Virus record (IMG/VR): IMGVR_UViG_3300031867_000032
Location: 1-64,000 of that record
Reading direction: 5' to 3' (one strand)
DNA length: 64,000 nucleotides
Source of the DNA: a virus
Taxonomy: Duplodnaviria > Caudoviricetes
Position numbers and translations under genes: made by a program. The notes under the pieces were generated by a model. That model did not search any database. It worked only from the letters and a program-made list of their open reading frames with translations, and was not told the origin of the DNA. Shown here piece by piece: positions 1,997 to 37,300 of this stretch. Each line of letters starts with the position of its first letter. Position 1 is the first letter of the stretch.

Positions 1997-2011
1997 AAAG
2001 AAGGTGACTTT

Positions 2012-5429: not shown

Positions 5430-5442
5430 GGAGGTCGAGCAC

Positions 5443-7008: not shown

Positions 7009-7022
7009 CGAGAGGAGGGAAG

Positions 7023-8417: not shown

Positions 8418-8434
8418 TTAAAGGAGGTTGTAAT

Positions 8435-8926: not shown

Positions 8927-8945
8927 TTGGAAAGGAGTGTAGAAT

Positions 8946-10043
8946 ATGGATTACAAAGATCTTAAAGAGCTAGCTCGCATTGCTATGCATGCGGATCCCA
9001 GCGCTCCTACTGCTTACTCCTTCGGTAATGAGTCTTATACCCTTGATCAGGTAAATCAGGCTCTACAGGTTGAGTTCCAGAAGTTAGCTGGTTCTTATAG
9101 AGATTATCGTGAGAACAAGAACACCATCTTCCGTCTAATTGAGGAAACAATTGATGAAGTTCTTCCTGCTCGCGTTGAACAGCAGTATGCTCAGTTCGCT
9201 GAGGTTCGTACTGTTGCTAATGGCGAGAAGGCTATTTTCCGTATGCGTGTTACTGAGGCTGCACGTAAGCGTGCTAAGACCTTCGTTACTCGCGTTGGTT
9301 TAGCTGGTCGTTATGAAGTCTTCATGCTTGATGGTAAGCAGCTTGAAATCGGTACCGCTGCTATCGGTGGAGCCGCTCGCATCGGCTTTGAGGAAGTTCT
9401 CGACGGCCGCATCCAGTTCTCTGAGCTTACCAGTCTTGTCATGGAGGGCATGGACGAATATATTTATCGTGAGATTGCTAAGGCTCTCGAAGCTGTAGTT
9501 AAGGACCTACCTGCTGTACAGAAGGCTGAGGTTGCTGGGTTCGATGAGGCTACAATGGACGAGTTACTCGCTATTGCTGATACTTATGGTCGTGCTGCTA
9601 TTTACTGCACCTTTGAATTTGCTTCTAAGATGCTTCCTGCTGAGGGATGGGTTTCTGATGATATGAAGAACCGTCTCTGGGCTGACGGTTGGCTAGGCAA
9701 TTATAAGGGCCATAATGTTATTATTCTTCCTCAGTCTGTCGTTGACGAGACTAATATGGAGAAGGTAATTGATCCTGCTCAGGCTTACATCTTCCCTGCT
9801 GGTCAGGACTCTAAGCCCGTTAAGATTGTCTTTGAGGGCCCAACTGCTGTCCGTACCGTTGAGGATAATGACGACTGGAGCACCGACTTCCAGACCTACA
9901 AGAAGTTTGGCGTTGCTACTTTCTTCACTAATTATATCTTCAGCTACCGTAATACTGAGTTAGTTAAGGCTACACGTCTCCACAACTTCGATGATGGTTC
10001 TGAATCTAGCACAGATGATGGTGGCAACAACGTCAAGCCTTAG
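8946..10043 (+). CDS. Major capsid protein, 365 aa
   Basis: Position, size, strongly biased codon usage (GCT/CGT/AAG/GAG), followed by a terminator. Confidence 0.8.
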   Translation: MDYKDLKELARIAMHADPSAPTAYSFGNESYTLDQVNQALQVEFQKLAGSYRDYRENKNTIFRLIEETIDEVLPARVEQQYAQFAEVRTVANGEKAIFRMRVTEAARKRAKTFVTRVGLAGRYEVFMLDGKQLEIGTAAIGGAARIGFEEVLDGRIQFSELTSLVMEGMDEYIYREIAKALEAVVKDLPAVQKAEVAGFDEATMDELLAIADTYGRAAIYCTFEFASKMLPAEGWVSDDMKNRLWADGWLGNYKGHNVIILPQSVVDETNMEKVIDPAQAYIFPAGQDSKPVKIVFEGPTAVRTVEDNDDWSTDFQTYKKFGVATFFTNYIFSYRNTELVKATRLHNFDDGSESSTDDGGNNVKP

Positions 10044-14284: not shown

Positions 14285-15625
14285 ATGCGCATGGGTGTAC
14301 GCGAGATCTGCGACGTTGTCTTTCGTCCTTTAACTGCTGTAGATATCGGAAATCAGCACTTTGATGCTGGTCAGCCTGTTCTTTATCTTGATACAGCTAA
14401 GACCAGTACTCTTGAGGGTGCTGCTACTACAGTTTATGCACAGGGCGGAAAAGGTAATCCTCGTCTAATTGGTTGGGACGGCGAGAAGACCTTAACATTC
14501 ACCGTCGAAGATGCTCTAATTTCTGCGGTTAGCTTCTCTATGTTATCTGGTGCTGGTATCGTCAAGGGCCGCAAGGCTGAGGGTGATACTCCTGCTACTA
14601 AGATTTATGCTCATCAAACTTATGATCTAGTTGTTGAAACTAAAAATGGTGGTCTTTATGCACAACTTCCTACAGATGTACGTAATGGCGCTACTCTAGT
14701 TGTTTCTCGTGAAGCTCCTGTTTATGCCACTGTTTTAGATAGTGCTGGTGCTCCTCGTACTTTCCTTTCTGCTGTTACTATGAAGGAGATTTTTACTGGC
14801 AATGATGCTTCAACTGTAGCAGAATATGACCCTGCTGCTCCTGGTGAAGTCAAGCTTGAAGCTGAAGATGTAGTTTGGTTTAAACTTAGCTCTAGTGAGC
14901 GTCCATATACTGAGGGCACTGTGCCTCCTGGGGTAAAAGCTGGTAATACTGTCCGTATTGACTGCTATACAGTTCATACCGAAGGTGCTCAAGAAATTCA
15001 GATTGACGCTGAAAACTTCGCTGGTTATTATTATATTGAAGCTGATACCCTCTTCCGTGACGAGGCTACTGGTCAAGACTTACCCGCTCAGTTTATTATT
15101 CCTCGTGGTAAGATTCAGTCTAACTTCACTTTTACAATGGCTAACTCCGGCGATCCTTCAACCTTTACCTTTACAATTGACGCTTTCCCAGCTTATACTA
15201 AGTTTAATAAGCGTAAGAAAGTAATGGCTGCTCTCCAGATTATTGATCCTACTGTTGCAGGACATAATTATGAGGATAAGAGCATTATTGGCCATAAAGA
15301 GCGTAATGCTGGCGTAGATATTTACGGTGAAGGTAATGAATATACCGAAGGCGGTAGCGATCAAGCTAAGCGTAATCGTATTTATGATACTAGCATTTTT
15401 GAGGAAGTTGGAACTTCTAATAACCAGCAGCAAGATGGTGGCACTGGTGACGGTGGTACTGGTGAAGGTGGATCTGGCACTACAACTGACACTTACGTTG
15501 ACGCACCTGCCGAGTTTAATGCAGATACAATTTATTACGTCAAGGATGGCGATAATTACGTCGCAGCAGATCCTCAGCCTACCGCTGATAACTTTAGTGA
15601 AGGAACTTATTTCATTAAAGGTTAA
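14285..15625 (+). CDS. Major tail (tube) protein with Gly-rich linker and small C-terminal extension, 446 aa
   Basis: AAAGGAGG RBS; GGKGNPRLIGWD and SGDPSTFTFTIDAFP motifs; high-expression codons; no TGA. Confidence 0.75.
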   Translation: MRMGVREICDVVFRPLTAVDIGNQHFDAGQPVLYLDTAKTSTLEGAATTVYAQGGKGNPRLIGWDGEKTLTFTVEDALISAVSFSMLSGAGIVKGRKAEGDTPATKIYAHQTYDLVVETKNGGLYAQLPTDVRNGATLVVSREAPVYATVLDSAGAPRTFLSAVTMKEIFTGNDASTVAEYDPAAPGEVKLEAEDVVWFKLSSSERPYTEGTVPPGVKAGNTVRIDCYTVHTEGAQEIQIDAENFAGYYYIEADTLFRDEATGQDLPAQFIIPRGKIQSNFTFTMANSGDPSTFTFTIDAFPAYTKFNKRKKVMAALQIIDPTVAGHNYEDKSIIGHKERNAGVDIYGEGNEYTEGGSDQAKRNRIYDTSIFEEVGTSNNQQQDGGTGDGGTGEGGSGTTTDTYVDAPAEFNADTIYYVKDGDNYVAADPQPTADNFSEGTYFIKG

Positions 15626-17930: not shown

Positions 17931-20900
17931 TTGAAATATTCCAATACTATTGAATATAATATTAAAACTAGTTTAGATTCTAAAGGTTTAACTCAGTTAA
18001 GATCTGAGTTACAAAGTTTAGAATTAAAACTACAAAATATGGGTAATAAAGGTTTATTAGATGAAAAAACTTTTGTAGATGCCCGCAATCAAATTCAAGG
18101 TTTAGGACAGGCTTTAAGTGATGCCTTTAATCCTTCTCTTGGAATGTTAGATTTATCCAAGTTAAACCAAGAACTTAAAAATAATGATGTAACAGCCCAA
18201 GGATTAAAAACTGCTTTTACTTCTCTTGGAGCAGAAGGTCAAGTTGCTTTTAATAATTTAGTTGGTGAATTAGGTAAACTTGATACTGGTATTTTAAGAA
18301 CAAATTCCCAAATAGATAAGTTATTTACTACTTTTAGCAATACTTTTCGTTGGGGACTAGTATCTAGTTTCTTTAGTCAATTTATGAATGCAATTCATAG
18401 TTCTGTAGATTATGTAAAAGAACTTGATGATTCACTAACTCAGATTATGCTTGTTACAGATTATAATCGTGATTCAATGAATGAATTTGCAAGATCTGCT
18501 AACGAAGCAGCTAAAGCTGTTAGTATGACAACTACAGGTATGACTAATGCTTCATTAATTTTTGCTCAGCAAGGTTATGATCTTGGGCAATCTCAAGAAT
18601 TAGCTACATTATCTGCTAAAGTGGCTAATGCTTCTCAGCAAGATACTGCTACTACTTCAGATCAGATTACAGCATATATGAATGCTTATGGTCTTGAAAA
18701 TAGTATTGGTGAACTTACACAAGCAATGGATAACTGAGCATTAATTGCAAATATTTCTGCAGCAGATGTAGGTGAACTTGCACAAGCATCACAGCGAGCA
18801 GCTTCAATGGCAAACGCTGTAGGTGTTAGTGGTGAGCAACTTGCATCACAGATTGCTACGATTGAGTCAGTAACACGAGAAGCCCCAGAACAAATTGGTA
18901 ATGGTCTTAAAACTCTTTATGCTCGTTTCTCAGATATTGCTTCTGGAAAAGAAGATGAAGATGGTTTCACTCTTGGTAAAGTTACTTCAGAGTTAAATAA
19001 GATTGGTGTTCAAGTTCTTGATGAAATGGGTCAAATTCGTGATGTTGGCGATATCATGGAAGACCTTATGGTTATTTGAGATGATCTTGACCAGACAAGC
19101 AAAGTAGCCGCATCTCAGGCTTTAGCTGGTAAATATCAAGTTAATCGTTTTATGGCTTTAATGGATAATTCTGATATGTATGAAGAGTATAAAGGTGCAA
19201 CTGGAGCTAATGCGGCTGGTACTCTTGATATAATGAGTGAAGAATATGCTCAGTCTATTGAAGGACGAAGTGCTAAATTACAAGCTTCTTTAGAAGGATT
19301 ATTTAGTACAATATTTAATACTGATGATATTTATCCTTGAATGGATGCCGCACAAGGAGCTATAGATTTATTACAACAATTTTTTGATGCTCTTGGTGGA
19401 GGACAAACTGTTCTTTTAGGTATTGGTAGTTTATTAATGCAAATATTTAGTAAAAATATGGCACAAGAAATTAATAATGTCGCAACTAATAGAGCAGTTC
19501 AACAACAAAAACTTGAAAATTTACAAAATTCTCAAGCTACGTTAACAACTTTGGGTGCGGCTAATCCTAATCCAAATGATGCTAATTCACAGAATATTTT
19601 AAATTTTGCTCAATATATGCAAGCCAATGCTAAGAATTTTAATGCAGAACAAATGGATCAAGCTAATTCTATTTTACAAGAGTTAGTTCAAAATAGTAAT
19701 GCGGCTACAATGGCCGCAGATAAATTAAAAGAAAGCTTATCTGTTATTGGAATTGGTATTACAGCAACAACAGGTGAAAGTATTTTAGCTCCTTTCTTAG
19801 ATAGTGAAGGAGCAGTAAATGCAACTTTATTATCAGAAGCACTTCAAAATATGTCTCAAAGTGAAGTTGCTGAAATGTTTTCTCATATACAAGAAGATAT
19901 TAAACCGGCAAGAGAAGGCTTATTAGAATTTAATAAAGCTTTGCAAAATTATCAGCAAGAATTAAGAAATGCAAATAGCACCGATGATAGTTGAAGTCAA
20001 AGTCTTGCAAAATTACAAGCGGCACTAGATAATTTAGATGGTAAAATAGATCCTAGTACATATGAACGTTATGAACAAGCAGTTAAAGATATTGTAGAAG
20101 TAACTGAAAATGCAGGGGATCAAACAGCAGAAACTACTGCTGAAGTGGCTAAACTTGCAGATGGATTAGAAAAAGTTGCAGCAAAAGATTTAACTAATTT
20201 AAATCAATTAAATAATGATGCTTTTCAAGCTAAAAATACTCAAATGGCAGCAAAAGATTCCAATAAAGTTGCTGGAGCATTTCAAGAAGGTATGGGATCT
20301 CAAGCTCATATTCAAGAAATTTTAGATACCTTTAATGCAGTTCAACAATTAACTTTTGCTTGACAAGCATTTCAAAATCTTGGTAGTCTTTGAGCTAATG
20401 AAGATTTATCCACTGGAGAAAAAGTTCTTCAGACTATAATGAATCTTACAATGGCTATGCCGCAATTAATTGACGCTATAGACACTTTAAAAAGTGGAGG
20501 CTTAGCACAATCATTTCAAGAACTAAATGATGCTTTATCTAATATTCAAGCAGGAAATATAGATTTTTCTTCTGATGGAAGAATGGTAGAAATTAACGAA
20601 GAATTAAATTCTTTATTAGAAAAAAGAACTACTATTAATGATAAGATTAGTAAAGCACAGCAAGAAATTTATAATAGCACTAAAAAAGTAGCACAAGCTG
20701 AAAGTGAAAGCGGAAAAAATGCTATGACAGGGGCTCAACTAGCATTTAAAAAACTTTTAGCAAAAAAGACGGAAAAGGAACAAAATGAACTTATTTCCAT
20801 ATTAGAAAAAGAACAAATAGCCAATGAAGCAGCTATTACAACAGCAGAAACTACAAGAAGTGCTATTGGAAAAATAATAACTGCTGAGCTAGTTAAACAA

Positions 20901-23900
20901 GTTGCTTTACAGGCGGCTTTAACTTTTGGTATTCCTTTATTATTAGCTGGTTTAGGCGCTGCGGTTGGATATTATCAACAGCAACGAGAGGAAGCAGAAA
21001 AACTAAAGCAAGAACGTTTAGAAGCTTCAAATCAACAAACCGATGAGTTAAAGAAAAATGCAGCAAACATACAAGAGCTTTATAATAATTATAAAGAAAC
21101 AGGAGAAGCGGCTGATGGTTTAAGAGAAGCTCTTGAACAACAAGCTGAAGCTTTAGGTATAGTAGTAACGGCTGCAGATGATTATGATAGTTTAAAACAA
21201 AAAATAGATGAAGCAACAGCTTCTCAATTAGCATATAATGCAGCTTTAAGAGGAGAAGATTCTTCTATCTCAAAAACAACTGCTACCGATGCTGGATTAA
21301 CTTTTGAAGATAAAAAGGCACTAGGAATTGATACGACTTCAGCTTCTTATGTTAGCACGGCTACTGGTCAAATGCAATATCAAGCAGATGGAAGTGTTTC
21401 TGCAGATATAGCAAAAACAGTTGAAAAATCAAAAGAATTAATAGATCTTGAGCAGCAAAGTATTGCAAATCGTAATGCAGAATTGGCTATTTTAGATCGT
21501 GGTAATCCAAAAGAAGAAGAAAAATATCAGTTATTAAAACAGCAAAATACAGAAAGTCAAGATCGAATAGATCGTCTTACTAATTATGTTGAAGGAAATA
21601 AAGATTATTTAGATAATCAATATGCACAAGCTGAAAATAATGTATTATCAGTAGCTTTAAATACAGATCGTTTTAAGGGACAAGAAAATGCTGCTGGTAA
21701 TTTTGAAATAACTTCTTATGAGCAAGCTCTTCAATATGTAAAAAATATTACAGATGAATTAGAAATTACAGAACAACAACAGCAAGAATTAGCTGCAACT
21801 GCTTTAGAATATGCTGGTAATCTTGAAGGCGCCGCGCAAGCTCAATTAGAGATAGCTCAAAATCAAATTGAACAAAATCCTTATGTTTATTCTGGAGTCC
21901 ATGCAGGCGAATCCGGAATGAATAAAATCAATGAATTGGGTGAAAAATTTGATTTATCTAATCAAGCAAAAGCAAAAATATCAGATTTAATAGATTGGTC
22001 TGATACAAATGAGCTAGATGCAAGAATCGCAGATTTAGCTGAAGAAATTGAAGAAGGTTTAAGTCAAGGAATGTCTCTTGATGATATTCTTTCTAAAATG
22101 CAAGAAAATCAAGCGATCGAACTTACAGATGATGAAATTCTTAAGCAAGAACGTGATGATTATGGGTATAATGGAGAAGATTGAGACCGAGATGCAGAAG
22201 GAGTTAAAGATTATGCTGATTCTCTTCAAGAATTGGCAGAAATTTCTGATGAAGTTGCAGATTCATTAAAAGATAATAGAAAAGCTGCTATTAGTATCGC
22301 CGATGCAAATGCTCGATTAACAAAAGGAGTAAAATCTTTACAAGAAAATTGAGAAGATTGAAATGAAATTTTACAAGATAGTTCAAAAGAAGGAACCCAA
22401 GAGTACGCTGAAGCTTTAGAAGGAACTGAAGCAGCATTAAGTAATATTTTTGACTATGATATTAGCGATACTTTTGCAAATTCTACAGCATTTATTAAAG
22501 AACATTTAGACGATATTCAAGCGGCTGCAGATGGTGATGTTGAAGCAATTGATAGATTAAGAGTTGCTGCGGCGACTCAGATTGCTATAGATGCAGGAGT
22601 AGATTTCAGTAATTTAACTGCAGATCAACAACGTATTTGAGATGAAGTTATTAATTATCCTTATGATGATATAGAAATAGGTGCTGCTTTAGATACCACA
22701 GCAGTTTGACCAGTTTTGCAACAAATGCAAGATCAACTTGGGTTAACAACTCAAGAAATGCAGAAAATTTTAGATTCATTAGGATTTGAGCCAAAAATTG
22801 ACTATTTAGAGGTTCCAGCTGATGCTATTCAAAAAGATGAAGTTACAGATACTGGTACTTATACAGATGATAAAGGTCAAACTTATACCTTTGAATTAAG
22901 TTCTGTATTAAATGGAGATACAAATACTTCTGTAAAGATTCCAATAATTAGTGGTTCAAGAACAACTTATCAAGGTGGAGGAAGTGTTGCTCCGCCAAAC
23001 ATTTCTAGTAAAGGTGGTTCTTGTTTTGTGGCTGGTACTTTAATTACCACTTTAACTGGCTTCTCTCCGATAGAACAAATCAAACAAGGGGATATAGTTC
23101 TTTCTTATAATGAATCACTTCATCAACTTGAATATAGTACGGTAGTTCAGACTATGATCCATGATGTTATAGAACCTATTTATACTCTATATATTAAAAA
23201 TGAACAATTAAGAGTTACTAGTATTCACCGCTTCTTAATTTCTCGTGATATTTTCCATTCAGCTCCACAATGAGTACCTGCGACAGACCTCCAAATTGGT
23301 GATTGGATGTTCTTCGCAGATGGCACGTGACATTTAATTTATAACATTGAAGTTAATGTTGAACATCAAATTGTCTATAATTTTGAAGTAGCTGGAAATC
23401 ACAATTACTACGTTGGCCGCAACCAAATTCTTGCTCACAATAAGGGTGGAGGAAAATCCTGCTTTGTAGCTGGCACTTTAATCTCTACTTCTTTTGGATA
23501 TAAGCCTATTGAATTAATTAAACCTAATGATCTTGTACTTTCTTATAATGAATCATTATATCAAAATGAATATAGTAAAGCTGTTCAGACCATGATTCAT
23601 GATACTATAGAACCAATTTATACCTTATATATTAAGAATGAACAATTAAAAGTTACTGGTATCCACAGATTCTTAGTTTCTAAAGATATTAGTTTTGAAC
23701 CACAATGAATTGCCGCACAAGATTTACAAATTGGTGATTGAGTATTATTAGCTGATAGTACTTGACATTTAATTTGAAAGATTGAAGTTAATCTTGAACA
23801 TCAAATTGTTTATAATTTTGAGGTGGCGGGAAATCATAATTACTACGTTGGCCGCAATCAAATTCTTGCTCACAATAAAGGCGGAAGTGGCAAAAAAGGT

Positions 23901-26900
23901 GGCGGTAGTGGTAGTGGTCAAAAACCTAAAACTGCTAAGAAAAAAGAAGCAGAAAAAGCTGAAAAGAAATATTATGAAGAAGTAGATAAGCAATTAGAAC
24001 AAACAGAAAAAACACTTAAATCTTTAGAAAAAGTTACAGATAAATTAACAGGTACGCAAGCTAGAGCTAAACAAAATGAACAATTAAAATTACTTCAAAA
24101 AGAAAAAGATCTTCAAGAAAAGAAATTAAAAATTCTCCAAGAGCAAGAAAAAGTTGATGTATCAACCGCAATTAAAAAAGCTGATAAAGATTTTGAAGAT
24201 TTACTTAAAAAACAAGGTGTTAATTTTAATCTTTTAGACTTTACATTTGATGAAGAAGGCTTTATTGATAATCTTGATTCTGTTAGAGAATCTATAGCAA
24301 ATGGTATAAATAAATTAAATGACCAATATAATGCTATAATTGGCGATGATGGAGAAGTCACTGACGAAGAGCAAGAACGATTAAAAGCCCTTGACGAAGA
24401 AATTCAAAAACTTGAAAAATTAGGTAAAGAAGTAGAAAAAAATGGTACTCGTTATAATGAAATTGTTATAGAAGAACAAGAAATTCAAGATGAAATGCAA
24501 GAAATTCAAGACCAAATGCAAGATATTGCAATTGACGCCTATAAAGCTTCTCAAGAAGCAATCGATAACTTAAAAGATTTAAGAAAAGAATGGGCTAAAT
24601 TTAGTGCAGGTCTTTATGATTCTTCTAAAGGGGAATCTTTCTTATCTTTGGATAATCCAATTCGTCAATTAAAAGAAATAGAAAATGAAATAAGTTCTAT
24701 CTATACAGTTTCTGGGACTGAAGCTAGAAAATATTATGATGATGTTATCGCTCAGCAACAAAAATATTTAGAGAATGCAAAAACTGCGGATGAGCAGCAA
24801 GCTTATAAAGATGCTATCGAATATTATGAAAAATTAAGAGATAGCATTGATGATGGTGCAATTCTTAATAATGGTTTAATGCAAGTTGCCTTAAATGATC
24901 TTACTAGACTTCAAGAAATTTGAAATAATTGAAATGATGAAGGCGGCAATGGTTTCTTTGGAGACGATAAAGCTGCACTTGAAAAAGCTCTTGAAGATGC
25001 TCAAAAACGTGTAATGGAATTTGCTCAAGATTTTGAAGAACTGATTGAAGATTTAAAAGATGCAACATTAGATATTGTAGATCATACTATGGAGCAATGA
25101 GATCGGCAACTTGATAGATATGACAGAGTTATTGATCAATTAGATAGATATTCTGATACTTATTCATTAATTTATGGTGACGCTTCATATGATATGCAAG
25201 AAGCGGTTTTAAGTCAACAAGCTCAAACATTAAAGAGTGAGTTAGATGCAGCTCAAGAAGCTTATCTAGCAGCTAATACTTATTATCTAGAAGCTTATGA
25301 GAAATTCGTTGATAAGAGCACAGGCTTAGCCAAAGAAGGCTATGAAGACTATATGTACGAACTTGAAGAAGCTATGAATGATGCTGAGGATAAAGTTCGA
25401 GATATAGCTGCGGATGCCGCAGAAAAATTCTCAGAAGCTTTTGAAGCCGCAGTTATGGCTAGCACACAATATATTCTTCGTAACACAATAGGCGAAAATG
25501 ATTTTGAACATTCTGATCGTAATTGAGAATGAGACAAAGAATATATTGACAAGTATAAAGATGGCGTTGAAAAAGCATATGAAATGGACAAGCTCCGCAA
25601 TAGATATATTGATATGCTTAATAATGCACAAGGTGCTTCTTTACAAACTCAAAATAAAATTCGTGCACAAATGCAAGAACAACTTGATCTCTTGGATGGA
25701 CAAAAGACTGTTTCTGAATATGATGTTAAGCTTGCAAATGCTAAATTAGAAATTCTTCAAAAACAAATTGCTCTTGAAGATGCTCAACGTAATAAGAATA
25801 AGATGCAATTACGTAGAGATACACAAGGTAATTATAGATACGTCTATACAGCTGATAAAGATAATGTTGATCAAGCTCAACAAGAATTACTTGATTCTGA
25901 ATATGATGCTTATGAAATGAGTAAGCAACAACAGATGAATAATTATGATGACATGATTAATGCTTATAAACGTTATCTAAGTCAACGAGAAGAAATTTTA
26001 ACAAATAATAATTTATCTGAGGCTCAAAAGATGGAGCAGATTAAAGAACTTTGAGATAGATTCCAAAAATATGTTAATGCTGCACAAGAAGATTTTGGTG
26101 ATGCAACCGCAGGTACCGTAGATATTCTTCAATGATTAGTTGTAAATGGTACTGATTATACAGCAACAGCTGCTACAGATATGTTAAATCAGCTATTAGA
26201 TGCAGAAGGCAATGTAGCTGAACAATCTGGTGTTATTTGGATGGATTTAGCTAATAATATGGCGAATGAAGTTATTCCAAGTATTGCAGATGCTGTTACT
26301 ACAGCTGATGATGTTATTGAACAAAAATTAGTTCAAACTGGAATTGCACTTGTTGGAGAAGATGGTACTGGTGGAGTATTTGGTGAAGTTTCTAATGGAG
26401 CCAATGATTTCGGTGATCAATGTGAAATGGCTGCAAACCAAACAGCAATTTTAGCTGAGCAATCAAATAAATTAAAAGAAGCTTTATTAGGTGACTCTGA
26501 TGCTTTTGTAGAAACTCAAGGAAAATTAGCCTCTTATCAAAAACAGTTAGAGGATGTAGCAGAAGCTTCTTCTAATACGGCTAGAGCTTTGAGAGATACA
26601 CAAAATGCTTTAGACAAAGCAAATGCTGAAAAACTTAATTATAAAACTCAGATTGATAGATTACTTTCTGGTCAAGATATTATTGTTAATCATAAAATTG
26701 TTGATGCTGAAGAATACAGAAGACAACAAGAAGAAGAAAAAAGAAAACAGCAACAACGAAGTAGCGGTGGCGGCGGTGGCAGAAACGCTCTAGCAGATGC
26801 AAGAGCCATTTGATACCACGGTGCATGAGGTAATGGAGGAAACTGGTATACTCCATATTCTCGACAATTCGGAACAGCTGCGGCAAATAAAGTTCTTTGA

Positions 26901-27287
26901 TATTTCAATCATGGTTATGGATATAATTTTGATTTTGATACCGGTGGTTATACTGGCGAATGGAATCAAGGAGAAGGTGTAAGTAGTCATAAGAATGGTA
27001 AATTAGCTTTCTTACATCAAAAAGAACTTATTTTAAATGCACAAGACACAGAGAATATATTATCTGCTGTTTCTATGGTAAGAAGTCTTGCAAATTCAGC
27101 TCAAGCTTCTATGAACAATATTAATACTGCGGCCTCTGGCAATATTAATAGCATATATAATCCTGTTACAGAACAAAGAGTTGATATTCAAGCTTCATTC
27201 CCCAATGCGACAGATGCAGAAGATATACGTCAAGCTCTTATTGGTTTATCTGATAGAGCTTATCAGTATGCTCATCGTGTAATTTAG
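17931..27287 (+). CDS. Tape measure protein, 3118 aa, with two tandem Hint domains
   Basis: Eleven track fragments share one frame when TGA=Trp; N-terminal tape-measure-type helical region, long coiled coil, C-terminal FDTGGYTGEW...LAFLHQKELILN motif. Confidence 0.9.
23022..23441 (+). other. Hint (bacterial intein-like/PT-HINT type) domain 1 in the tape measure protein, 140 aa
   Basis: Starts CFVAGT, block B VTSIH, ends VYNFEVAGNHNYYVGRNQILAHN followed by Lys. Confidence 0.9.
23460..23876 (+). other. Hint domain 2 (tandem duplicate), 139 aa
   Basis: Starts CFVAGT, block B VTGIH, identical C-terminal VYNFEVAGNHNYYVGRNQILAHN followed by Lys; separated from Hint 1 by KGGGKS. Confidence 0.9.
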
Positions 27288-27354
27288 GGTGAAAATAAAT
27301 AAATCTTATATATTACTTTTGATTTAAAAAAGAGTGAGATATAAGGAAATTCCT

Positions 27355-27389
27355 ACGGGAGAGTTATATTTTAACTCTCCCGTTTTTTA
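27355..27389 (+). terminator. Intrinsic terminator after the tape measure gene
   Basis: ACGGGAGAGTTA/TAACTCTCCCGT stem followed by a T-tract. Confidence 0.8.
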
Positions 27390-27411
27390 TTTAGAGAAAA
27401 GGAGCGCATGT

Positions 27412-30400
27412 ATGGCGATAAATAGTTCTAGTTTACAAGAAACTATTCTTAAAGCAATTGACGCTGTTGTCACACAGCGCAATAATGAGTTAAAATTAGA
27501 TAAAACAGTTACCGGCACCATTAAAAAGAATGTTGGAATGAGAGACGGAAAACCCATTTATCAAGTTCAATATAGTGGTGGTATATTTAATGCAATCGCT
27601 CAAAGTACAAATGATTCTTATCTACCAAATCAATCTGTTTATGTAATGGTGCCTGAAAATAATTTTTCAAAAGAAAAAATTATTATAGGACGTGCATCTA
27701 AAATTCAAACAGACCGTTCACGAAGTGTTGTGGCAGCCGCAGTTAATAAATATTCTATTATAGGTGCAAATTTATTAAAATCTACAAATGATAATAATAT
27801 TTCTAATATACAATTTGGGTTAAGATCTTATCATCCATCTGCGTATGATAATCATGGGATTGATCATCGAGCTCAATTTTTATATCAAGCAAATTCTGAT
27901 TCTAATTTAATAGACTTTAGTAATGATAGGCTGAATGTCTATAAAGAAGATACAACTGCTATTATGATTAAAGCAGATTTTTTAACTAACCTTTCAGCTG
28001 AACAAAAAATGCAATCTGGTGCACGATATGGATTAATCTTTAATTTTGCTTTTGATAACTTAAATAAAAGTTTTGGTGAAACCAATAGAGAAATTTTAGA
28101 AAATGCCGCGAAGATTGTAATTGGACAATATGAACAAGTTACATATTTAGATGATAAAACATCTGTGGCAGAAACTAAAAGTTCTTCTCTATTGGATATA
28201 ATAGAAGATTTTGAAAATTCATTAGAATTAAATAATAGTATTAATTATTATACACAAGATAATACAGGTAAAATTGATCAAACTATTGAGTATATTCAAT
28301 CAATATATAATAATTTTCAAAATACTAGTCCTGAATTAGATAAAGATATTATTGGAAATATTATTTCAGCTTATTTAAATTTATTAAATGATTTAAAAAA
28401 ATATAAAACATTATTTAAAATAAATGAAGATTATCAACTTTGGTTAGCAGAAGTTGTAGGAGACGGTGATCAAAAATATGAACAGTTTGTCTTGACCTCT
28501 GATAATATGATTGGTAATCCTTTTAATTTTTCAGAATGAAATACTCAATATTCTGTCTTTAAAATTGATTTAGAAACTTTTAATCACTTAGAAAGTATTT
28601 TATTTTATAAAGAAGGCTTTATAGAAAACGTTGTCGAAGAGCAGCGTTGACCTATTGGTAGCAATGGCGGAGGGCCAGATATATTTGTAAAAAATTTACA
28701 GATATATGCTATGAATCCTTTAGATAATCAGTCTGGAGATTATGTTATTAAAGTAGAACCTTCTAATGGTCAAGATGCTATTATTTCTAATAGTAATCCT
28801 AATACACAATTTAGAGCCACTATTTTAAGAAAAATGTATGAAGATTTAAGTCGTAATGATAATATGCATTATCTTTGATTTAAAGAAGATTCTACTATTA
28901 TTTCTAGTAATTCTGAAGGATACCATTATTTAGGTGGAGCAGGATGAAGAAAATTAGAACATAATGAATCTGGTTGACTTTTTTCTGTAAATGAAAATAA
29001 AAAGAGTGGTGTATCTATACAAGATAATAAAGCCTATAAAAATAATTATAAATGTGTTGCAATTTATGAGCCAAATGCTGATGATAAAACAATATTATCT
29101 TGCATATTTTCTATTTACAATGAAGATGCCGCAATTGATTTAAAACTAATTTCTGACATAGGAACTCAATTTAGTTTTGATGCGGGAGCTCCTCTTATTA
29201 CTGTTTTAATTAATGAAAACAGAATGAAGAGCGAAGAGTTTAAAGAAGTAGGCTTTAATCCTGAAGCAGAAGGTAAAGATCGTTTATATAAATATGATTG
29301 AGCCATTGCAGATTCTGCAAACGAACAAGTTCTTTTCTTAGACGAAATTTTTAAAGAAGTTAAAATGCCAGAGGTAGAATCTGTTCAAGATGCTATCCTA
29401 ATTAGTGCAAGAAAAGACTTATTGAAAAAAATTAAATCATATGTTGCTTATATGAAAACAGGAGAGACAGAATTAACTGTTGAAGAAGTAATTGAAGCAT
29501 ATAAGGCAACAAGAATTGTATATCCTGTTTCAATAGGAAGCTCAGGATTTACTGTATATTGTTATTTAAAGAAATATGAAAACGGCTTTTATTACGATGT
29601 AGGCTCCACATCTCTAAGTTTTGTAAATCAAGATTCAGAAATTTTTTCTGACTACAGAATTGTAATTGAAAATGGAGATCAAGTTTTCCAATATGACGAG
29701 TATGGAAAAAGTCCTTGCTCGGAAAGTAAAAAAGATCCTGTAGTAGTTCAGCCATTAAAGGCAAAACTATTTACGCCATCTGGACTTGAAGTAGAAAACT
29801 CAAATTATACAGTTGAATGAATTTTTCCAATAGAAGATTCCATGTTATTAACTAGTAATACTTTAAGTTTAAATCCTGCAACAAAAATAGTTGAACTTCA
29901 TAAAGGATATGAATTAACTTTTAATATTGCTGATTTATATAACCCCGATGCATATAATAATCAAGTTACATGTCATATTGCTTTTAATGGAAAAGACTAT
30001 TATAAAGACACTAATCTTTACATTGGTAAACAAGGTAATAATGGAACGAATGGCACAGATGTTGTTGTAAAAATTGATCCTGCGGGAACTGATCCTTCAG
30101 GAATATTAACCGAACAACCACTAACACTTTATGTTCAAAAAACAAATCTTTCCGCGAATGCAATGTGGAATATTGATAGTTCTAGACGATTAAATCCAAC
30201 TGTTAATTTAATTGATGATATTTTAGGATTAAAATTAAACGTCTATCAAAAAGGAGTTTTATTAGGTCCTGATAGTTATAAAGCAGGGTATCCAAAATGA
30301 AATCTTGCAGGAAATCCTAGCGAAACATTGCAAAAAAATGGAAAGTTTTTTACAATTGGTGAACAATCTACACAATTACAATGAAATTATGATATCCAAA

Positions 30401-33400
30401 ATGATAATCAGCATTATCGTTTACAGAATATTCGTGCGGAAGTTGTTTTAAGCGAAGATCAAACTTATTATGGCTTTTTCTCATTACCAATTATTGAATA
30501 TGAAAATCTTGGTGGTTTAAATGTAGCAAGTTTATTATTAAAAAATAGAATTGCCATAGATAAAAAATATTATTTAAAAGAGATTATTTATAATCAAGAT
30601 GGCCGCAATCCTGTTTATAATCATAATCAAGGATTAAAATTAATTAATTTACCACCAAATATTAATAGAATAGTTTTTAAAGCTAAAGGTGGATGAGATG
30701 CTCAAAAAAATACTTCTGGTAGTATTTCTAAAGTAATAGAAGATACTCCTGATTTTCTTCTTCTTTTGGAGAAAGATAATAATGAAGTTGTAGCACAACA
30801 AGAAATAGAAATAACCAATATAAATAAAGAAGCAATGGTTTACGTCATTCCAAATGATACTTATAATGGAAGTCAAACTAACAATAGAATAGAAGCTAGA
30901 TTATATAATATTAATAATGATTTAGTAGCTACTGTTTATGCTCCTATCCATATGGCTTTAAATACTTTCGGATTAGCATCTCTTAATGCATGAGATGGTA
31001 ATACTGTAAAAATAGATGAAGATAATGGATACGTCATGGCTCCGCAAGTAGGTGCTGGTGAAAAAGACTCTAATAATCGTTTCACTGGTGTTTTAATGGG
31101 TAAAACAGAAACATATACTGGTGGTGCAGATAATGAAAAAGAAGTAGGATTATTTGGATATACTCATGGTATTCAATCAATTTTCTTAGATTCTGAAACA
31201 GGAGACGCTACTTTTGGATTGCCAGATGGATATACTTTTAATGAAGAAAGTGGAACACCAGTTCCAACTTTAGAAGGAGATACCTACAATGAGGGTCGCA
31301 TTGAATTGCGTCCTGGAGCTGTTAGTAAAATAGGTGGTTGGCGATTAGGTCGCCGCAGCATTTATTATACGATGACCCCAGATCCAAAAGAAGATAAATC
31401 TAAATACATAAATGGTATAAAAACTATAACTAATTTTGGATATAAGTATTCAGGAGAAATTGGCCCTAAATATGAAGGAGATATGGGAACTCCTGGTAAA
31501 AAAAATTATGCTGCTCATCATGAAAAAGATATTAAAACATCAGATGGAGGATTGTTACTTTCTGCAAATCCAGCTTATATCTCTATTAAAGGTAAAAAAT
31601 TAGGCTATGATGATATTAATACTGGATTGAATAGTAATTTGTATATTGGAGATTCATTAGAAATGCAATTAGACCCTCAAACTCCAACTCTTTTTACTAT
31701 TTTTAGACATAATGGTCCATCAAGAGCTTATCCTGGAAAACGTTTTTATTTAGCTGGTATCAACGATAAAGGAGAATTAATTGCCAATGGTACCGCGACA
31801 GATGATGGTTCTGGAACAGGTACTAAATCTGGTGTAAATACTTTAAAAGCATTTAAGGATAATTTAAATTCTGACGCTTCTTACGTAGGATCAATGTTTG
31901 AAGCTGGACATAACGCTGCAAGTACAAAAGTATTTCTTCAAATGTTTAGAGAGCGACCTACAGATGATGCAGATTCAAAAGGTGCTTCTACTCAAGTATA
32001 TATAACAGGAGGTCAACAGACTACTTCTGGAGACTTTACGAGCAATTCAGTTTCAGGCGATGAATATGGTAGACCGATTAGTATTCATGGTCAAAGTCTT
32101 ATTTTATATGCCAGAACAAGTGAAGATGATTCTAAACAATATATTACCGTAGGAGACGATCCTATAAGAGGCGAGTATATTAAAACATCTGATGGTAAAT
32201 ATGAGGCAATAATTAGAGATCCGGATACAAATGAAATAATGAATCCAGCAGATGAATATTATGTTATGAAAGGTTTTAATTATCCTGAGACAGACGCAAA
32301 CATTAAAATTTCTACTAATGAAGCTCAAATTAATTTAGGTCCAAGTACTCAATTATATTTAAAGCGTAAGCAAGAAGATGCAGATAAAGGAGATGGCTCA
32401 AAAGAAAAAGTTGGACCTAGTATACTAAAAACAACAGGTGCCTTCAATTGAGAAATTGGAACTGAGGGTAGAAAAGCTAATTTAAATATAAACGCTGCGG
32501 AGTTAACTGAAAATTATACTGAAATCATTCAAAATGTTAATGGACCAACAGAAATTAATAATAGTAAATTATATCAAATTAATGGTAAAGATGATATTAA
32601 ATTATTTAGAGGAACTACAGTTGATGCTGGAGATGATGATAATAAGAATACCATTTATTCTCAATTAACATTGACTAATAATGAAGCTACTTTTGGATTA
32701 AATGCAAAAAGTTTCATAACTTTAAAAGATGAAGCTGATGAAGAAAGCAAATGAGAAACAATCGGAAAACTTTCTTTAATTTCAACTAGAAATAGTGATA
32801 AAACCGGTGCCAATATATTTATTCATTCAAATCAAATAGGTTCTGGAACAGCTCATAATGAAGATACATTACCTCAAATTCAGTTATCAGCAGGAGCAAT
32901 CAATTCTAGTATAGTTAATGATGAAACTATTTATAATGGAAATCAAGTATCTATTTATTTAAATAGTAGCAATAATAATTGATCAAATTCTGAACCAATA
33001 GGAAATGAAAAAAATAATTCTCAAATTGGGGGAAGCGAAAAAATAGATGGAGTTCCTTTTGAGATTCGAGTTCAAAATTATAATTATAATAATAAAGAAA
33101 AAAAATATAGCTCAGCTCAAAACAGAACTATTTCCATTAGAACAAATAAAATTTATGATCATCAAAATCATACAGCTACTCAATTATATACTTTTAGAGT
33201 AGGTATGTCTGCAAAAGTTGTAGGTGGTATTGAATTAACCGATGGTTATGCTGGTGTATCAGGAGGAAGTAATTTTAGTATTTGAGCGGCTAGAGGTATC
33301 CATACAGAATGACAAGCTGATTGAATTAATTTTGGTTTAACTAATTTTTCTGGTTTTAGAAGAGGACCTATTTATCATAATAACGATGGAGGATATTATT

Positions 33401-33822
33401 CTGTTGATGGTATAACAACATTAAAAGAAGCTATCGACAATTGTCTTAAAGCTGCGGGAGCAGCAAAAAGTGCAGCAGACGCTGCTCAGTCTACAGCAAA
33501 TAGTGCTCTTAGTATTGCTACTAATCATAAACATACTTTTACAGTCTCTCATAGCACAAAAACTATGAAAACAATTAAAGATATTGATTATAAAACAAAA
33601 ACTTTTTCAGCGGTAAAAGATGGCGATAATGTAACATTAAATTCTGTTGTAAGTAGTATTGGAAATGTTGTAGCATTAAGAGATTTTACTTTATCTGCAG
33701 ATAATCAAGGATATTCTCAAGTCAAAATAAATGAAAAAGAAGAGTCTTTTGAGAAATTAGACCCCAATCCCGCTACTGGAACATATGAATGAACTTCGAG
33801 TGGTCCTAGTTGATCATCTTAA
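27412..33822 (+). CDS. Very large tail tip/baseplate protein, 2136 aa
   Basis: AAAGGAG RBS; continuous frame with TGA=Trp, gaps between track fragments read by hand; beta-rich; APQVGAGEKD...TGVLMG and IGGWRLG motifs seen in siphophage tail-tip proteins. Confidence 0.65.
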
Positions 33823-34379: not shown

Positions 34380-37300
34380 ATGGCTACCATATTAAGTACA
34401 CTTTATCCTCCTCTCATTGATACTTTTATGCCAGCTTTTCCTAATACAGATAGTGCGGTGGCACATTTTACTGTGTCACCGTATAATTCTACTTATGATA
34501 TTCAATATTTGCATGTAACATTAGTAAATCAAAAAACTAATAAGAACGCTTTTTCAACAGAAGCAAATATTGAAACACCAGAGGGAACGGCTTTAATCAA
34601 TGGGATTTGAATTCTACCTTTTTCTGAGTCTCTTAATGGAGATATTAATCCTTATCTCGAAATGAACAGAGCAAATAATTATTTTACACTATATATTCCA
34701 AGAGCTCTACTAAAGGCTAATGAAGATGGGTCAAATACTTTTAATGTAAACAGCTATTATAAATTACAATTAAGATTTGACAAATATGTTTCAACTGATA
34801 ATAGTTGATCTATTACTCAAGCTAATAGTAATTATATTTCTGAAAAGCGAGCTTATTTTTCAGAATGGTCTAGTGTTTGTTTATTAAAAGCTATTCCAGA
34901 AATTACTGTCCATTTTAATAATTTTACATATGAACCTACTGAAAATTATGGAGCTAGCTCTACTACTGCGGTCACTAATTTACCTTCTACAACTGTTGTT
35001 CCATCAAGAGTCCCGCAATATATGCCTGGTATTATTCCTTTTGCAGGAAATCTTACTTTTGCGGGGAATAATGATAATTCTATTAGTAAGAGTGCAAATT
35101 CAGAATATTATCAAAGAGATATTCGCACTACTTCTAATGATGAATATTTAATGTCTTATCGAATAATTGTTCAAGATCAATTAGGTAATCTTATTAAAGA
35201 CAGTAAAATTCAATATCCATCTAAAGATGAAAAGACAAATACTTTTTATTGATTATGTGATATGACAGAGGTTGCTCCTGGCGCAGACTATAATGTAACT
35301 CTTAATTTTACAACAAATAATCAATATACTTTTTCTAAAACTTTTACTTTTACTTTAATGGAACCAACTGTTACTAATTTTGAGCCAAAGATTAGTTTTA
35401 ATAAAATTCCTTTGAAAGCATATGGAATTGAAGAACAAGTTTTAGTTACTTCAGAAGATGGATGAGTAGACGTTACAGTTCAATGAAATGGTAGTTTTGA
35501 TAATGGTTATTTATTTATTAAAAGAGCTACTTCGTTGACAAACTTTAAAGAATGAGAGTTATTAGATTGTTATTACAATGATGATAATACAAATTTAACT
35601 AGAACTATTACTGATAAAACTATTAGTAGTCTTGTTGGTTATAAATATGCTTGTCAATATTTAACTGTTAAAGGTTCTTGGTCTCAAACTGTAATAAGCC
35701 CTGAAATTGTTTATCCTGATTTTCATGATATTTTATTAAGTCGTGGAGATAAACAATTAGCAGTTAGATATAATCCACAAATTGCAAGTTTAACACCAGT
35801 AGTAAGTCGTGTAAAAATTGATACTTTAGGTGGCCGTTACCCTAAATTTGCGGAAAATGCTAAACTTCATTATAAGCAATTCCAATTATCCGGTTTAATA
35901 ACTGCGGAAAGTGATTTCAACCGTACTTTCTTAAATGATTTAGACTATAACGATGATATGGATTTATATAATGATAAAATGAATGGACAATATCAAATTC
36001 GTAATGATACTGTCCAAGAGACAGAAATAATGTACGGAATAGACTCAGACGGGAATGTTATTCCTAAATATAATGGTACTTATAGTGCGGAAATTGAGTC
36101 TGCGGATACTGACACTGAAATTCTTTTAAGAGATACACAAAAGAATACCAGACATGATCTTTATCCTAAAGATAATTGATGGTGAGAAAGAAAATTCCGT
36201 GAAGAAGTTATGGAATGACTCAATGATGGAGAACCTAAATTATATCGCTCTATGACTGAAGGTAATTTAATTGTAATGTTAGATTCTATCAGCTTAACAC
36301 CTAATGCACAATTGGGTCGCCGCATCTGGAATTTTTCTTGTACCGTTTATGAAGTTGGGGATGGTAATTCGCTAGAACAACTTGATGCTCTTGGAATTTA
36401 TCCAGTAGTAAATAGTTATAGTATAAATTTAACATCTGATCAAGGAATAACCACAGAAAATACAAATACATTATTGGGTCAAACTTATAGAATAAAAGCA
36501 AGTCCTAATGGTACAAATTTAATTCATACCGGTGAGTATGGAGACGATTATGGATATGTTTCTATCATTAATAGTAATGGTGAATTAGATGATAAAGTAA
36601 AAGCTCTTTCTATTGGAGATCAGATAGGTAATCTTTATACAGGATTGTATCAGAATTTTGATTTTGATACTTCAACAATTCGATTAAAAGATGTTAAAAT
36701 TCAATTTGAATCATTGCCGCAATGATATGATTTAGATTCTATGTCTCCTTCAAATCATGCTATTGGCGGGCTATATTTGACTATTCAAAGAAATGATGAA
36801 TTAGTTGATATAGTAGTAGATGAAAATTATCGAATCGTTGAAGTAAAGAATAATGCTCCTTTATGAGTTCAAGAAGGAATGACTATTACAGATTTCTTGT
36901 CTGATTGAGAAACTAAATCAGGAAATACATATTATAAAATTGAAGATGAAGATCAGTATATATATACAACTATTTCTTCCGATGATTATGAGTCAGAAAC
37001 TTTTAATTATTATAAATTTAAAGAACCTTATACTAAAGATGGAAGAAATTATATTAGCAAAGCTGAATTAAAAGGAAAAAGATTTATTTTAAAAGATTCT
37101 AATATACAAGATGCTTCTACTGATTATGCTACTTATACAGCAGTAAGTCCAACTACTTCTTTGCCAGAAACAGAAGAGGAATGAGGAACTTATTATGTTT
37201 TAGTTGATAAAATTGCAGAAGATGGATCAACAGAAAATTCTGAATATTATGATTATATACAGATTCCAAAGAAAGAATATAAACCTGATTCTAAACAGTA

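What the first reader, a model, noticed from the sequence alone, without database searches (positions are those of the whole stretch)
23022..23876. Tandem self-cleaving Hint domains embedded in the tape measure protein
Seen: residues 1698-1837 and 1844-1982 of the 3118-aa tape measure protein are duplicated Hint domains. Each has Cys1 (CFVAGT), block B TxxH and a terminal His-Asn, and they are flanked by Gly/Lys linkers (SSKGGS, KGGGKS, KGGSGKKGGGSGSG). The residue after each Asn is Lys, not Cys/Ser/Thr, and there is no homing endonuclease. Established: this is the signature of bacterial intein-like/pretoxin Hint domains, which autoproteolyse (as in polymorphic toxins) rather than splice canonically. 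Inference: the tail ruler processes itself without a protease into a 1697-aa N-fragment and a 1136-aa C-fragment, perhaps triggered at tail maturation or ejection. The duplication may give redundant or two-step cleavage. Both domains also contain TGA codons (2 and 4). I do not know of a described tandem-Hint tape measure protein; this is the best candidate for a new system here.
Basis: partly seen in the sequence, partly recalled or inferred. Interest (0 to 1): 0.92.

Follow-up and report, generated by a model that had tools for sequence, protein, structure and literature searches.

The report
Tandem intein-like domains in tape-measure protein
A ruminant-gut phage's tail-length ruler protein carries two copies of a small self-cutting, intein-like domain at a flexible hinge where related phages carry none to three. 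It is therefore an optional self-removing insert, common in metagenomes but not described in the papers I could search, and the lysine that always follows it hints at an unusual way of re-joining the protein.

Summary
Read with TGA=Trp, ORF 17931-27287 is a 3118-aa TP901-type tape measure protein (TMP). Residues 1698-1837 and 1844-1982 are two PT-HINT / type-A bacterial intein-like (BIL) domains. Each has Cys1, TxxH, a terminal His-Asn and Lys at +1.

- The arrangement is not unique. At least 681 TMP-sized metagenomic proteins carry this Hint, and this scan noted the family before on other DNA (e1-5687477).
- Of 121 TMPs analysed (120 retrieved relatives plus the window's own), 86 have one unit, 30 two and 5 three, all at the same Gly/Lys hinge.
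- Seventy-five close relatives have no unit and are single unbroken chains with the hinge intact, so this is an intein-like presence/absence insert.
- In all 157 units Cys1, Thr/His, His-Asn and +1 Lys are invariant, and Arg never replaces that Lys. dN/dS is 0.05-0.23.
- The best sequence and fold match is the C. thermocellum BIL (2LWY). The second is Tetrahymena BIL2, which forms Lys isopeptides.

Most likely each unit excises itself. Whether the halves are re-joined through the +1 Lys amine (my lean, 0.45) or stay cut (0.35) needs biochemistry. I rate it a new variant of a known kind.

The parts
17931..27287 (+). Tape measure protein gene, 3118 aa when TGA is read as Trp (27 TGA codons)
   Evidence: PF10145, TIGR01760 and tape-measure PHROGs match.
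18387..19424 (+). Conserved TP901-type TMP core (aa 153-498)
   Evidence: TIGR01760, 111 bits against a cut-off of 28.8. It is 95% identical to P0035 (one Hint) and 89% to P0262 (no Hint).
23004..23021 (+). Upstream hinge linker SSKGGS; residue -1 is Ser1697
   Evidence: Across 157 units residue -1 is Ser in 77 and Gly in 73.
23022..23441 (+). Hint unit 1 (aa 1698-1837): Cys1 at 23022-23024, block B Thr at 23217 and His at 23226, His-Asn at 23436-23441
   Evidence: PT-HINT match. 2LWY E 2e-16. AF2 pLDDT 91; Foldseek 2LWY TM 0.79/0.91. Nearest unit is P0006 unit 1, 89% identical with dN/dS 0.09.
23442..23459 (+). Inter-unit linker KGGGKS; Lys1838 is +1 of unit 1 and Ser1843 is -1 of unit 2
   Evidence: Other arrays have linkers of only KG, KGG or KGGG.
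23460..23876 (+). Hint unit 2 (aa 1844-1982): Cys1 at 23460-23462, block B Thr at 23655 and His at 23664, His-Asn at 23871-23876
   Evidence: PT-HINT match. It is 97% identical to the single unit of P0022, with dN/dS 0.045. Contigs of three other runs match from 23448 onwards and have Gly codons upstream.
23877..23918 (+). Downstream hinge linker KGGSGKKGGGSGSG; Lys1983 is +1 of unit 2
   Evidence: +1 is Lys in 157 of 157 units and never Arg, while K:R elsewhere in the flanks is 256:184.
14285..15625 (+). Tail tube protein (context: non-contractile, SPbeta/YomU-type tail module); no TGA codons
   Evidence: 71% identical to the gene called PF27173 YomU_Tube in relative L007. 37-39% identical to proteins of 134-142-kb Enterococcus phages.

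Best explanation
The two domains are active type-A bacterial intein-like (PT-HINT) units. They sit as an optional, copy-number-variable insert in the conserved Gly/Lys-rich hinge of a giant tape measure protein from an uncultured, TGA=Trp-recoded phage with an SPbeta/YomU-type tail.

After translation each unit removes itself. Cys1 converts the peptide bond to residue -1 (Ser or Gly) into a thioester, helped by the block-B Thr/His. The terminal Asn, helped by the penultimate His, cyclises and cuts the bond to Lys +1.

I think the two flanks are then most likely re-joined by an amine of the invariant +1 Lys attacking the thioester. This could be the alpha-amine freed by Asn cyclisation, as proposed for type-A BILs. 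It could also be the epsilon-amine, as in the Tetrahymena BUBL BIL2 domain. The mature ruler would then be one chain of about 2839 aa, equivalent to the Hint-less alleles.

The element persists as a hitch-hiker. It is gained, lost, duplicated and shuffled by recombination in the Gly-codon repeats that flank it, and purifying selection keeps every unit able to remove itself.

Shown: the anatomy, the family membership, the presence/absence and copy-number polymorphism, and the selection. Inferred: that the units are active, when they act, and above all that the halves are re-joined.
For: Family:
- PT-HINT scores 98.9 bits.
- The best PDB sequence hit is 2LWY, 'bacterial intein-like domain', E 2e-16. 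The alignment shows the shared block-F VYNF where the NpuDnaB intein has VFDL.
- The AF2 model (pLDDT 91) matches 2LWY best (E 2.8e-12, TM 0.79/0.91) and BIL2 of T. thermophila second.

Optional insert:
- The 121 TMPs analysed (120 relatives plus the window's own) carry 1, 2 or 3 units (86, 30 and 5 proteins) at the same hinge.
- Seventy-five relatives lack it, are contiguous and keep the G/K hinge.
- The DNA alignment of an empty and an occupied allele is a clean indel.
- On a tree of the TMP core, presence/absence needs at least 12 changes and copy number at least 30.
- Units move between single and array contexts: window unit 2 is 97% identical to the lone unit of P0022, and unit 1 groups with P0006 unit 1.

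Activity is maintained:
- Cys1, Phe2, Thr and His of block B, His-Asn and +1 Lys are each present in 157 of 157 units. This includes all 40 internal junctions of arrays whose units are only 54-78% identical.
- dN/dS is 0.05-0.23 at dS 0.34-1.0.

Re-joining:
- Hint-less alleles are one chain.
- +1 is always Lys and never Arg, although Arg makes up 42% of K+R at the other flank positions.
- Type-A BILs can splice by aminolysis without a +1 nucleophile (PMC4031507).
- BIL2 forms a Lys-epsilon isopeptide (PMC8616854).
Against: - No biochemical or proteomic data exist for any member.
- For the type-A BILs studied in vitro, cleavage products dominate over spliced product (PMC4031507, PMC7664689).
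- A nick in a flexible hinge of a protein threaded inside the tail tube might be tolerated, so one-chain Hint-less alleles do not prove that ligation is needed.
- Frequent shuffling of units between phages could by itself keep every unit fully autonomous.
- In more distant non-TMP members of the subfamily, +1 can be Arg, Thr, Asn, Ser, Asp or Ala.
- The sample of relatives is biased, because it consists of the best hits of two searches.
Confidence: 0.45

Rival explanations
1. Cleavage only. Each unit hydrolyses its N-terminal thioester and cuts at its Asn. The ruler then matures into two chains, 1-1697 and 1983-3118, plus free Hint domains and a KGGGKS peptide. The halves stay together non-covalently inside the tail tube, or act separately after ejection.
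For: - There is no +1 Cys/Ser/Thr.
- BIL domains give predominantly cleaved products in vitro (PMC4031507, PMC7664689).
- PT-HINT is the release module of polymorphic toxins (established knowledge).
- The insert lies in a disordered, variable Gly/Lys hinge where a break may be harmless.
Against: - Seventy-five close relatives make the same ruler as one chain, so cleavage is not needed by this tail type.
- If only the outermost junctions mattered, the internal junction residues of arrays should decay. All 40 internal junctions are intact at 54-78% unit identity.
- The strict choice of Lys over Arg at +1 has no obvious role in simple cleavage.
Confidence: 0.35
2. Hedgehog/BUBL-like transfer. The thioester at the end of the N-fragment is attacked by a nucleophile in trans, such as a Lys of another TMP chain, another tail protein or a host envelope molecule. 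This would covalently anchor or cross-link the N-terminal 1697-aa fragment.
For: - The second-best structural match is BIL2 of the Tetrahymena BUBL locus, which transfers its N-flank onto lysines of other proteins (PMC8616854).
- The hinge flanks are Lys-rich.
- Residue -1 is small (Ser or Gly), as in ubiquitin-like donors.
Against: - No conserved acceptor has been identified.
- Hint-less relatives manage without such a link.
- It does not explain why +1 of the same chain must be Lys.
- The terminal Asn, which this mechanism does not need, is invariant.
Confidence: 0.07
3. The domains are retained, unprocessed structural modules of the ruler (inactive Hint folds), or the tandem arrangement is an assembly or translation-table artefact.
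For: - Some TMPs carry folded enzymatic domains (established knowledge).
- No activity data exist for these units.
Against: - All catalytic residues are invariant in 157 units, whereas the rest of the unit diverges to 54% identity.
- dN/dS is 0.05-0.23.
- A second assembly of the source run reproduces the tandem with 0 differences.
- The two units differ at about 20% of bases, so they are not a collapsed or expanded repeat.
- TGG aligns with TGA between the units, which supports TGA=Trp.
Confidence: 0.05

Closest known systems
Type-A bacterial intein-like (BIL) domain of Clostridium thermocellum (PDB 2LWY; Amitai 2003, Dassa 2004 and Aranko 2013, as cited in PMC4031507 and PMC7765530)
   Same: - Best sequence match (E 2e-16) and best fold match (TM 0.79/0.91).
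- About 140 aa with no endonuclease.
- Cys1, TxxH, terminal His-Asn and block-F VYNF.
- No +1 nucleophile.
- Sits in a variable region of its host protein.
   Different: - The host protein is a phage tape measure protein rather than a bacterial secreted or surface protein.
- +1 is an invariant Lys followed by Gly.
- It occurs as 0-3 tandem units at one hinge, with empty alleles in close relatives.
- Only 33% identical to 2LWY.
BIL2 of the Tetrahymena thermophila BUBL1 polyubiquitin-like locus (PDB 6Y75/6TMM; Chiarini 2021 as described in PMC8616854)
   Same: - Second-best structural match (E 6e-11, TM about 0.75).
- A BIL whose thioester is resolved by a lysine amine, giving an isopeptide. This is a precedent for Lys-based ligation.
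   Different: - Eukaryotic and flanked by ubiquitin-like domains.
- The acceptor Lys lies in the downstream domain or in other proteins, not at +1.
- Only 23% identical.
- Zn-regulated.
Canonical inteins in tape measure proteins of actinobacteriophages (bioRxiv 10.1101/2025.01.02.630785)
   Same: A Hint-fold self-removing element inserted in a TMP, with intein-free alleles in relatives.
   Different: As I understand that survey, those are class 1/3 inteins that have a +1 nucleophile and sit in conserved extein sites. The units here lack the nucleophile and the endonuclease, sit in a low-complexity hinge and form arrays.
Pretoxin-Hint (PF07591) of polymorphic toxins (Rhs, CdiA, MafB)
   Same: The same Pfam family, with autoproteolytic release as the expected chemistry.
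   Different: No toxin domain follows the units. The C-fragment is the ordinary distal half of the ruler, with a conserved TMP C-terminus. No toxin-immunity gene layout was seen; downstream lie two giant ORFs without family matches.
Proteolytic maturation of tape measure proteins (lambda gpH to H*, T5 pb2; own knowledge)
   Same: The ruler protein is processed after translation.
   Different: As I recall, those cuts are near the C-terminus and are tied to tail assembly or infection rather than made by an embedded Hint domain. Here the processing would be autocatalytic, mid-protein and dispensable in relatives.

Membership tests
PT-HINT / type-A BIL domain | Match to PF07591 above the gathering score | tested here: met
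   98.9 bits against 27.7 for the whole protein; 109.5 bits for the 365-aa segment, in two stretches. 59.6 and 51.1 bits in the six-frame genome search.
PT-HINT / type-A BIL domain | Hint (Hedgehog/intein) fold | tested here: met
   AF2 model with pLDDT 91.1, all-beta. Top Foldseek hits are 2LWY, BIL2, mini-inteins and Hedgehog 1AT0.
PT-HINT / type-A BIL domain | N-terminal Cys nucleophile and block-B Thr-x-x-His | tested here: met
   CFVAGT and VTSIH/VTGIH in both units. Invariant in 157 of 157 related units.
PT-HINT / type-A BIL domain | C-terminal His-Asn (distinguishes type A from type B) | tested here: met
   ILAHN in both units. Present in 157 of 157 units.
PT-HINT / type-A BIL domain | No nucleophilic residue at +1 | tested here: met
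   Lys1838 and Lys1983. Lys in 157 of 157 units.
PT-HINT / type-A BIL domain | Autocatalytic N- and C-terminal processing | not testable with these tools
   Needs expression and mass spectrometry. Only conservation and dN/dS 0.05-0.23 argue for activity.
Canonical (class 1) intein | Cys/Ser/Thr at +1 for transesterification | tested here: not met
   +1 is Lys in every unit. The nearest Ser or Cys lies at +4 to +7.
Canonical (class 1) intein | Precise insertion, with empty alleles in close homologues | tested here: met
   Protein and DNA alignments of Hint-less P0262 against P0035 and the window.
Canonical (class 1) intein | Insertion in a conserved functional site of the host protein; homing endonuclease in mobile forms | tested here: not met
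   The site is a low-complexity Gly/Lys hinge next to a variable region. The unit is 140 aa and aligns end to end with the 138-aa 2LWY.
TP901-type phage tail tape measure protein | TIGR01760 / PF10145 core, position in the tail module, great length with coiled-coil character | tested here: met
   The gene follows a YomU-type tube gene and two small ORFs.
Polymorphic toxin (pretoxin-Hint plus C-terminal toxin) | Toxin domain downstream of the Hint and an adjacent immunity gene | tested here: not met
   No toxin family matched P0001 in Pfam, NCBIfam or PHROGs. The C-fragment is homologous to the distal half of Hint-less TMPs.
BUBL-type BIL (Lys isopeptide-forming) | Thioester resolved by a lysine epsilon-amine | tested here: inconclusive
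   Fold similarity and an invariant +1 Lys, never Arg, fit this chemistry. There are no ubiquitin-like flanks and no chemical evidence.

The most novel reading that the evidence does not exclude
These units carry out a natural form of protein splicing that uses a lysine amine instead of a Cys/Ser/Thr side chain at +1. The invariant Lys attacks the Cys1 thioester, possibly through its epsilon-amine, which would leave an isopeptide 'stitch' in the mature ruler. Asn cyclisation then releases the Hint. This would be a distinct mechanistic class of self-splicing element. It would be widespread in large gut phages and in many non-TMP proteins that carry arrays of up to 7 such HN|KG units, and it could serve as a cysteine-free ligation tool.
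Probability: 0.22. Interest if true: 0.85.

Novelty: new variant of a known kind. Interest (0 to 1): 0.6.

Why it matters
- If the units only cut, a large clade of uncultured phages with about 140-kb genomes (contigs of 130-190 kb) builds its tail ruler from a self-nicked two-chain protein. That would bear on how rulers set tail length and leave the tube.
- If the units re-join the chain through the +1 lysine, this is a natural nucleophile-free (or isopeptide-forming) splicing system. It would have hundreds of sequence variants to mine for protein-ligation tools, and it would extend the known repertoire of Hint chemistry.
- Either way, the family is a clean natural experiment, because closely related proteins carry 0, 1, 2 or 3 units at one site. 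It can show how intein-like elements without homing endonucleases spread and persist.
- It also shows that recoded (TGA=Trp) phage genes hide whole domain architectures from standard annotation.

Tried and rejected
- Megablast of the TMP gene against 50,697 deposited phages gave no match.
- tblastn of the Hint pair against the same collection found only 4 distant hits (30-34% identity). They lie in non-TMP hypothetical proteins of Ruminococcus phages and one fecal contig.
- tblastn of the first 508 aa of the C-fragment gave no match.
- The pattern-based IMG/VR scan with the Hint pair returned one weak locus only. That method is too insensitive for this family.
- I searched for naturally split TMPs (C-fragment query, 'shorter' lengths). 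It returned 4 uninformative hits because low-complexity words saturated the candidate list. This is no evidence for or against split genes.
- Pfam and PHROGs on the neighbouring ORFs and on the two downstream giant ORFs gave nothing useful. The local Pfam copy did not return PF27173, so the tube assignment rests on 71% identity to a relative's gene that carries that annotation.
- The literature search for 'BIL domain / aminolysis' returned only polymer chemistry.
- dN/dS values for the C-terminal 400 codons (0.37-0.66) come from poorly alignable coiled-coil sequence, so I did not use them.
- Runs X2-X4 give no cover over Hint1. I do not count this as absence. I use only the positive observation that their contigs continue upstream of 23448 into Gly codons.
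- The relative contig binned in an 'uncultured Clostridium sp.' MAG is too weak to name a host.
- I did not run a second structure job on the tandem pair or a complex prediction, because neither could tell ligation from cleavage.
Full report
**What is there**

Under the standard code the region is a string of short ORFs. With TGA read as Trp it becomes one ORF, 17931-27287, of 3118 aa with 27 in-frame TGA codons.

The protein is a tape measure protein (TMP). TIGR01760 tape_meas_TP901 matches residues 153-498, PF10145 matches residues 191-400, and several tape-measure PHROGs match.

Residues 1698-1837 (23022-23441) and 1844-1982 (23460-23876) are two Hint domains. PT-HINT scores 98.9 bits against a cut-off of 27.7, and Hint_2, Intein_splicing and intein_Cterm also match.

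The units are 77% identical in protein and about 80% in DNA. GD-TGG in unit 1 aligns with GD-TGA in unit 2, an internal control for TGA=Trp.

A second assembly of the probable source run, labelled a bovine gut metagenome, reproduces the stretch with 0 differences.

**Context**

The window is part of an 81.5-kb virus record that CheckV estimates at 57% complete.

The gene three ORFs upstream (14285-15625) is 71% identical to a relative's gene annotated YomU_Tube. It is 37-39% identical to proteins of 134-142-kb Enterococcus phages, and has weaker matches in Lactococcus and Bacillus phages. This points to a large phage with a non-contractile tail of the SPbeta/YomU type.

The nearest deposited TMP is at most 33% identical in the core, and none has the Hint. 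Relatives fetched from ENA and Logan also need TGA=Trp.

**What kind of Hint**

By sequence the best solved relative is 2LWY, the C. thermocellum 'bacterial intein-like domain' (E 2e-16).

An AlphaFold2 model of unit 1 (pLDDT 91) matches several structures:
- 2LWY is the best match (Foldseek E 2.8e-12, TM 0.79/0.91).
- BIL2 of the Tetrahymena BUBL1 locus comes second.
- Mini-inteins and the Hedgehog autoprocessing domain follow.

The unit is about 140 aa with no endonuclease. It shares VYNF in block F with 2LWY, where the NpuDnaB intein has VFDL. With Cys1, TxxH, His-Asn and no +1 nucleophile it meets the sequence definition of a type-A BIL, and it fails the +1 Cys/Ser/Thr requirement of a canonical intein.

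**The family**

A search restricted to TMP-sized proteins found 681 proteins with this Hint. Nearly all of the 120 listed also carry PF10145.

I analysed 121 TMPs, the 120 retrieved plus the window's own protein:
- 86 have one unit, 30 have two and 5 have three.
- Every unit reads [Gly/Ser/Lys/Arg-rich]|CF.AGT ... (I/V)L(A/V)HN|KG[Gly-rich].
- Triple arrays have linkers of only KGG and KG.

The site is always the same hinge, 20-40 residues upstream of the start of the distal coiled coil.

A second search with the TMP core found 75 close relatives with no Hint at all. They are up to 89% identical in the core and 2689-2959 aa long. All are single chains, and every one in which I could locate the site by a sequence anchor keeps the Gly/Lys hinge unbroken. 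At the DNA level, empty and occupied alleles differ by a clean indel.

On a tree of the core domain (186 TMPs), presence/absence needs at least 12 changes and copy number at least 30. The sample is biased towards best hits.

The Hint tree shows position-specific clades in several lineages, so those arrays are old. It also shows shuffling:
- Window unit 2 is 97% identical to the lone unit of P0022.
- Window unit 1 groups with unit 1 of P0006 and P0009.
- Unit 2 of those two proteins belongs to another clade.

Contigs from three other metagenome runs match from 23448 (unit 2) onwards at about 94% identity and continue upstream into Gly codons rather than into a unit-1 end. This fits single-copy relatives.

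**Selection**

In 157 of 157 units, Cys1, Phe2, the block-B Thr and His, the penultimate His, the terminal Asn and the +1 Lys are all invariant. Residue -1 is Ser (77) or Gly (73). Units within one array are only 54-78% identical, with a median of 61%.

dN/dS between units is 0.05-0.23 at dS 0.34-1.0, and dS between the window's two units is 0.82. The copies are therefore old, and each is kept functional at both junctions, including the 40 internal junctions of arrays.

Lys and Arg are nearly interchangeable elsewhere in the flanks (256 K to 184 R), yet +1 is never Arg.

**Mechanism**

The chemistry expected from the family is an N-S acyl shift at Cys1 and Asn cyclisation at the C-terminus. 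The fate of the thioester is open.

Reviews state that type-A BILs can splice by aminolysis after C-terminal cleavage, although cleavage products dominate (PMC4031507; PMC7664689). BIL2 of Tetrahymena resolves its thioester with a lysine epsilon-amine to form an isopeptide (PMC8616854).

Three observations make me lean towards re-joining through the +1 Lys amine (0.45) over cleavage only (0.35):
- The Hint-less alleles are single chains.
- Both junction chemistries are kept in every array unit.
- Lys is strictly required at +1.

None of these is decisive. A nick in a hinge may be tolerated, shuffling can keep units autonomous, and in more distant non-TMP relatives +1 varies.

If both units are excised and the flanks joined, the mature ruler is 2839 aa, close to the 2689-2959 aa of the Hint-less relatives.

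The Gly-codon repeats on both sides give a simple route for gain, loss, duplication and exchange by recombination without a homing endonuclease. This is my inference.

**Comparison and novelty**

The domain type and its possible chemistries are known. I found none of the following in the literature I could search:
- A phage tape measure protein as the host of a BIL/PT-HINT domain.
- A single hinge site with 0-3 units.
- An invariant +1 Lys-Gly.

Canonical inteins in actinophage TMPs are listed in a 2025 preprint.

The arrangement is common in metagenomes, and this scan has already noted the same family on other DNA with the same reading (e1-5687477, and similarly e1-3262578). I therefore rate it a new variant of a known kind, of moderate-to-good interest.

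Noticed in passing
proteins P0131, P0134, P0138, P0150, P0181, P0185, P0207 and others: Many non-TMP metagenomic proteins carry arrays of 2-7 units of the same Hint subfamily, joined by K, KG, KGG or KC linkers (...VHNKGGCF...). The arrays often lie near the called N-terminus and are followed by Gly/Ser-rich sequence. I do not know what these proteins are, and some may be gene calls truncated at recoded TGA codons.
   Followed up: partly
P0058 residues 3117-3272 and P0060 residues 3132-3287: Two related TMPs have a second, divergent Hint-like stretch (CFDAGT...) near their C-terminus. It lacks the His-Asn-Lys ending.
   Followed up: no
window 5073-10043 and 14285-15625, compared with 17931-47183: The portal-to-head gene block and the tube gene contain no in-frame TGA. 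The TMP (27), the next giant ORFs (19 and 30) and other tail genes are full of them. Earlier notes of this scan on this genome say the same.
   Followed up: no
window 27334-33822 and 34380-40847: Two giant ORFs (2162 and 2155 aa, read with code 4) lie directly downstream of the TMP. Neither has a Pfam or PHROG match.
   Followed up: partly
L001 (PV036440.1) and L002 (PV036441.1): Ruminococcus 'Heliusvirales' phages hold distant Hint domains (30-34% identical) in small hypothetical proteins outside any TMP. Two of the three records have three matching places each.
   Followed up: no
L011 9821-18805 (contig of a MAG labelled uncultured Clostridium sp.): A 104.7-kb contig binned into a 1.3-Mb Clostridium MAG encodes a 2994-aa TGA-recoded TMP, 78% identical in the core and carrying one Hint unit. 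It is probably a phage contig, and at best a weak hint to the host.
   Followed up: partly
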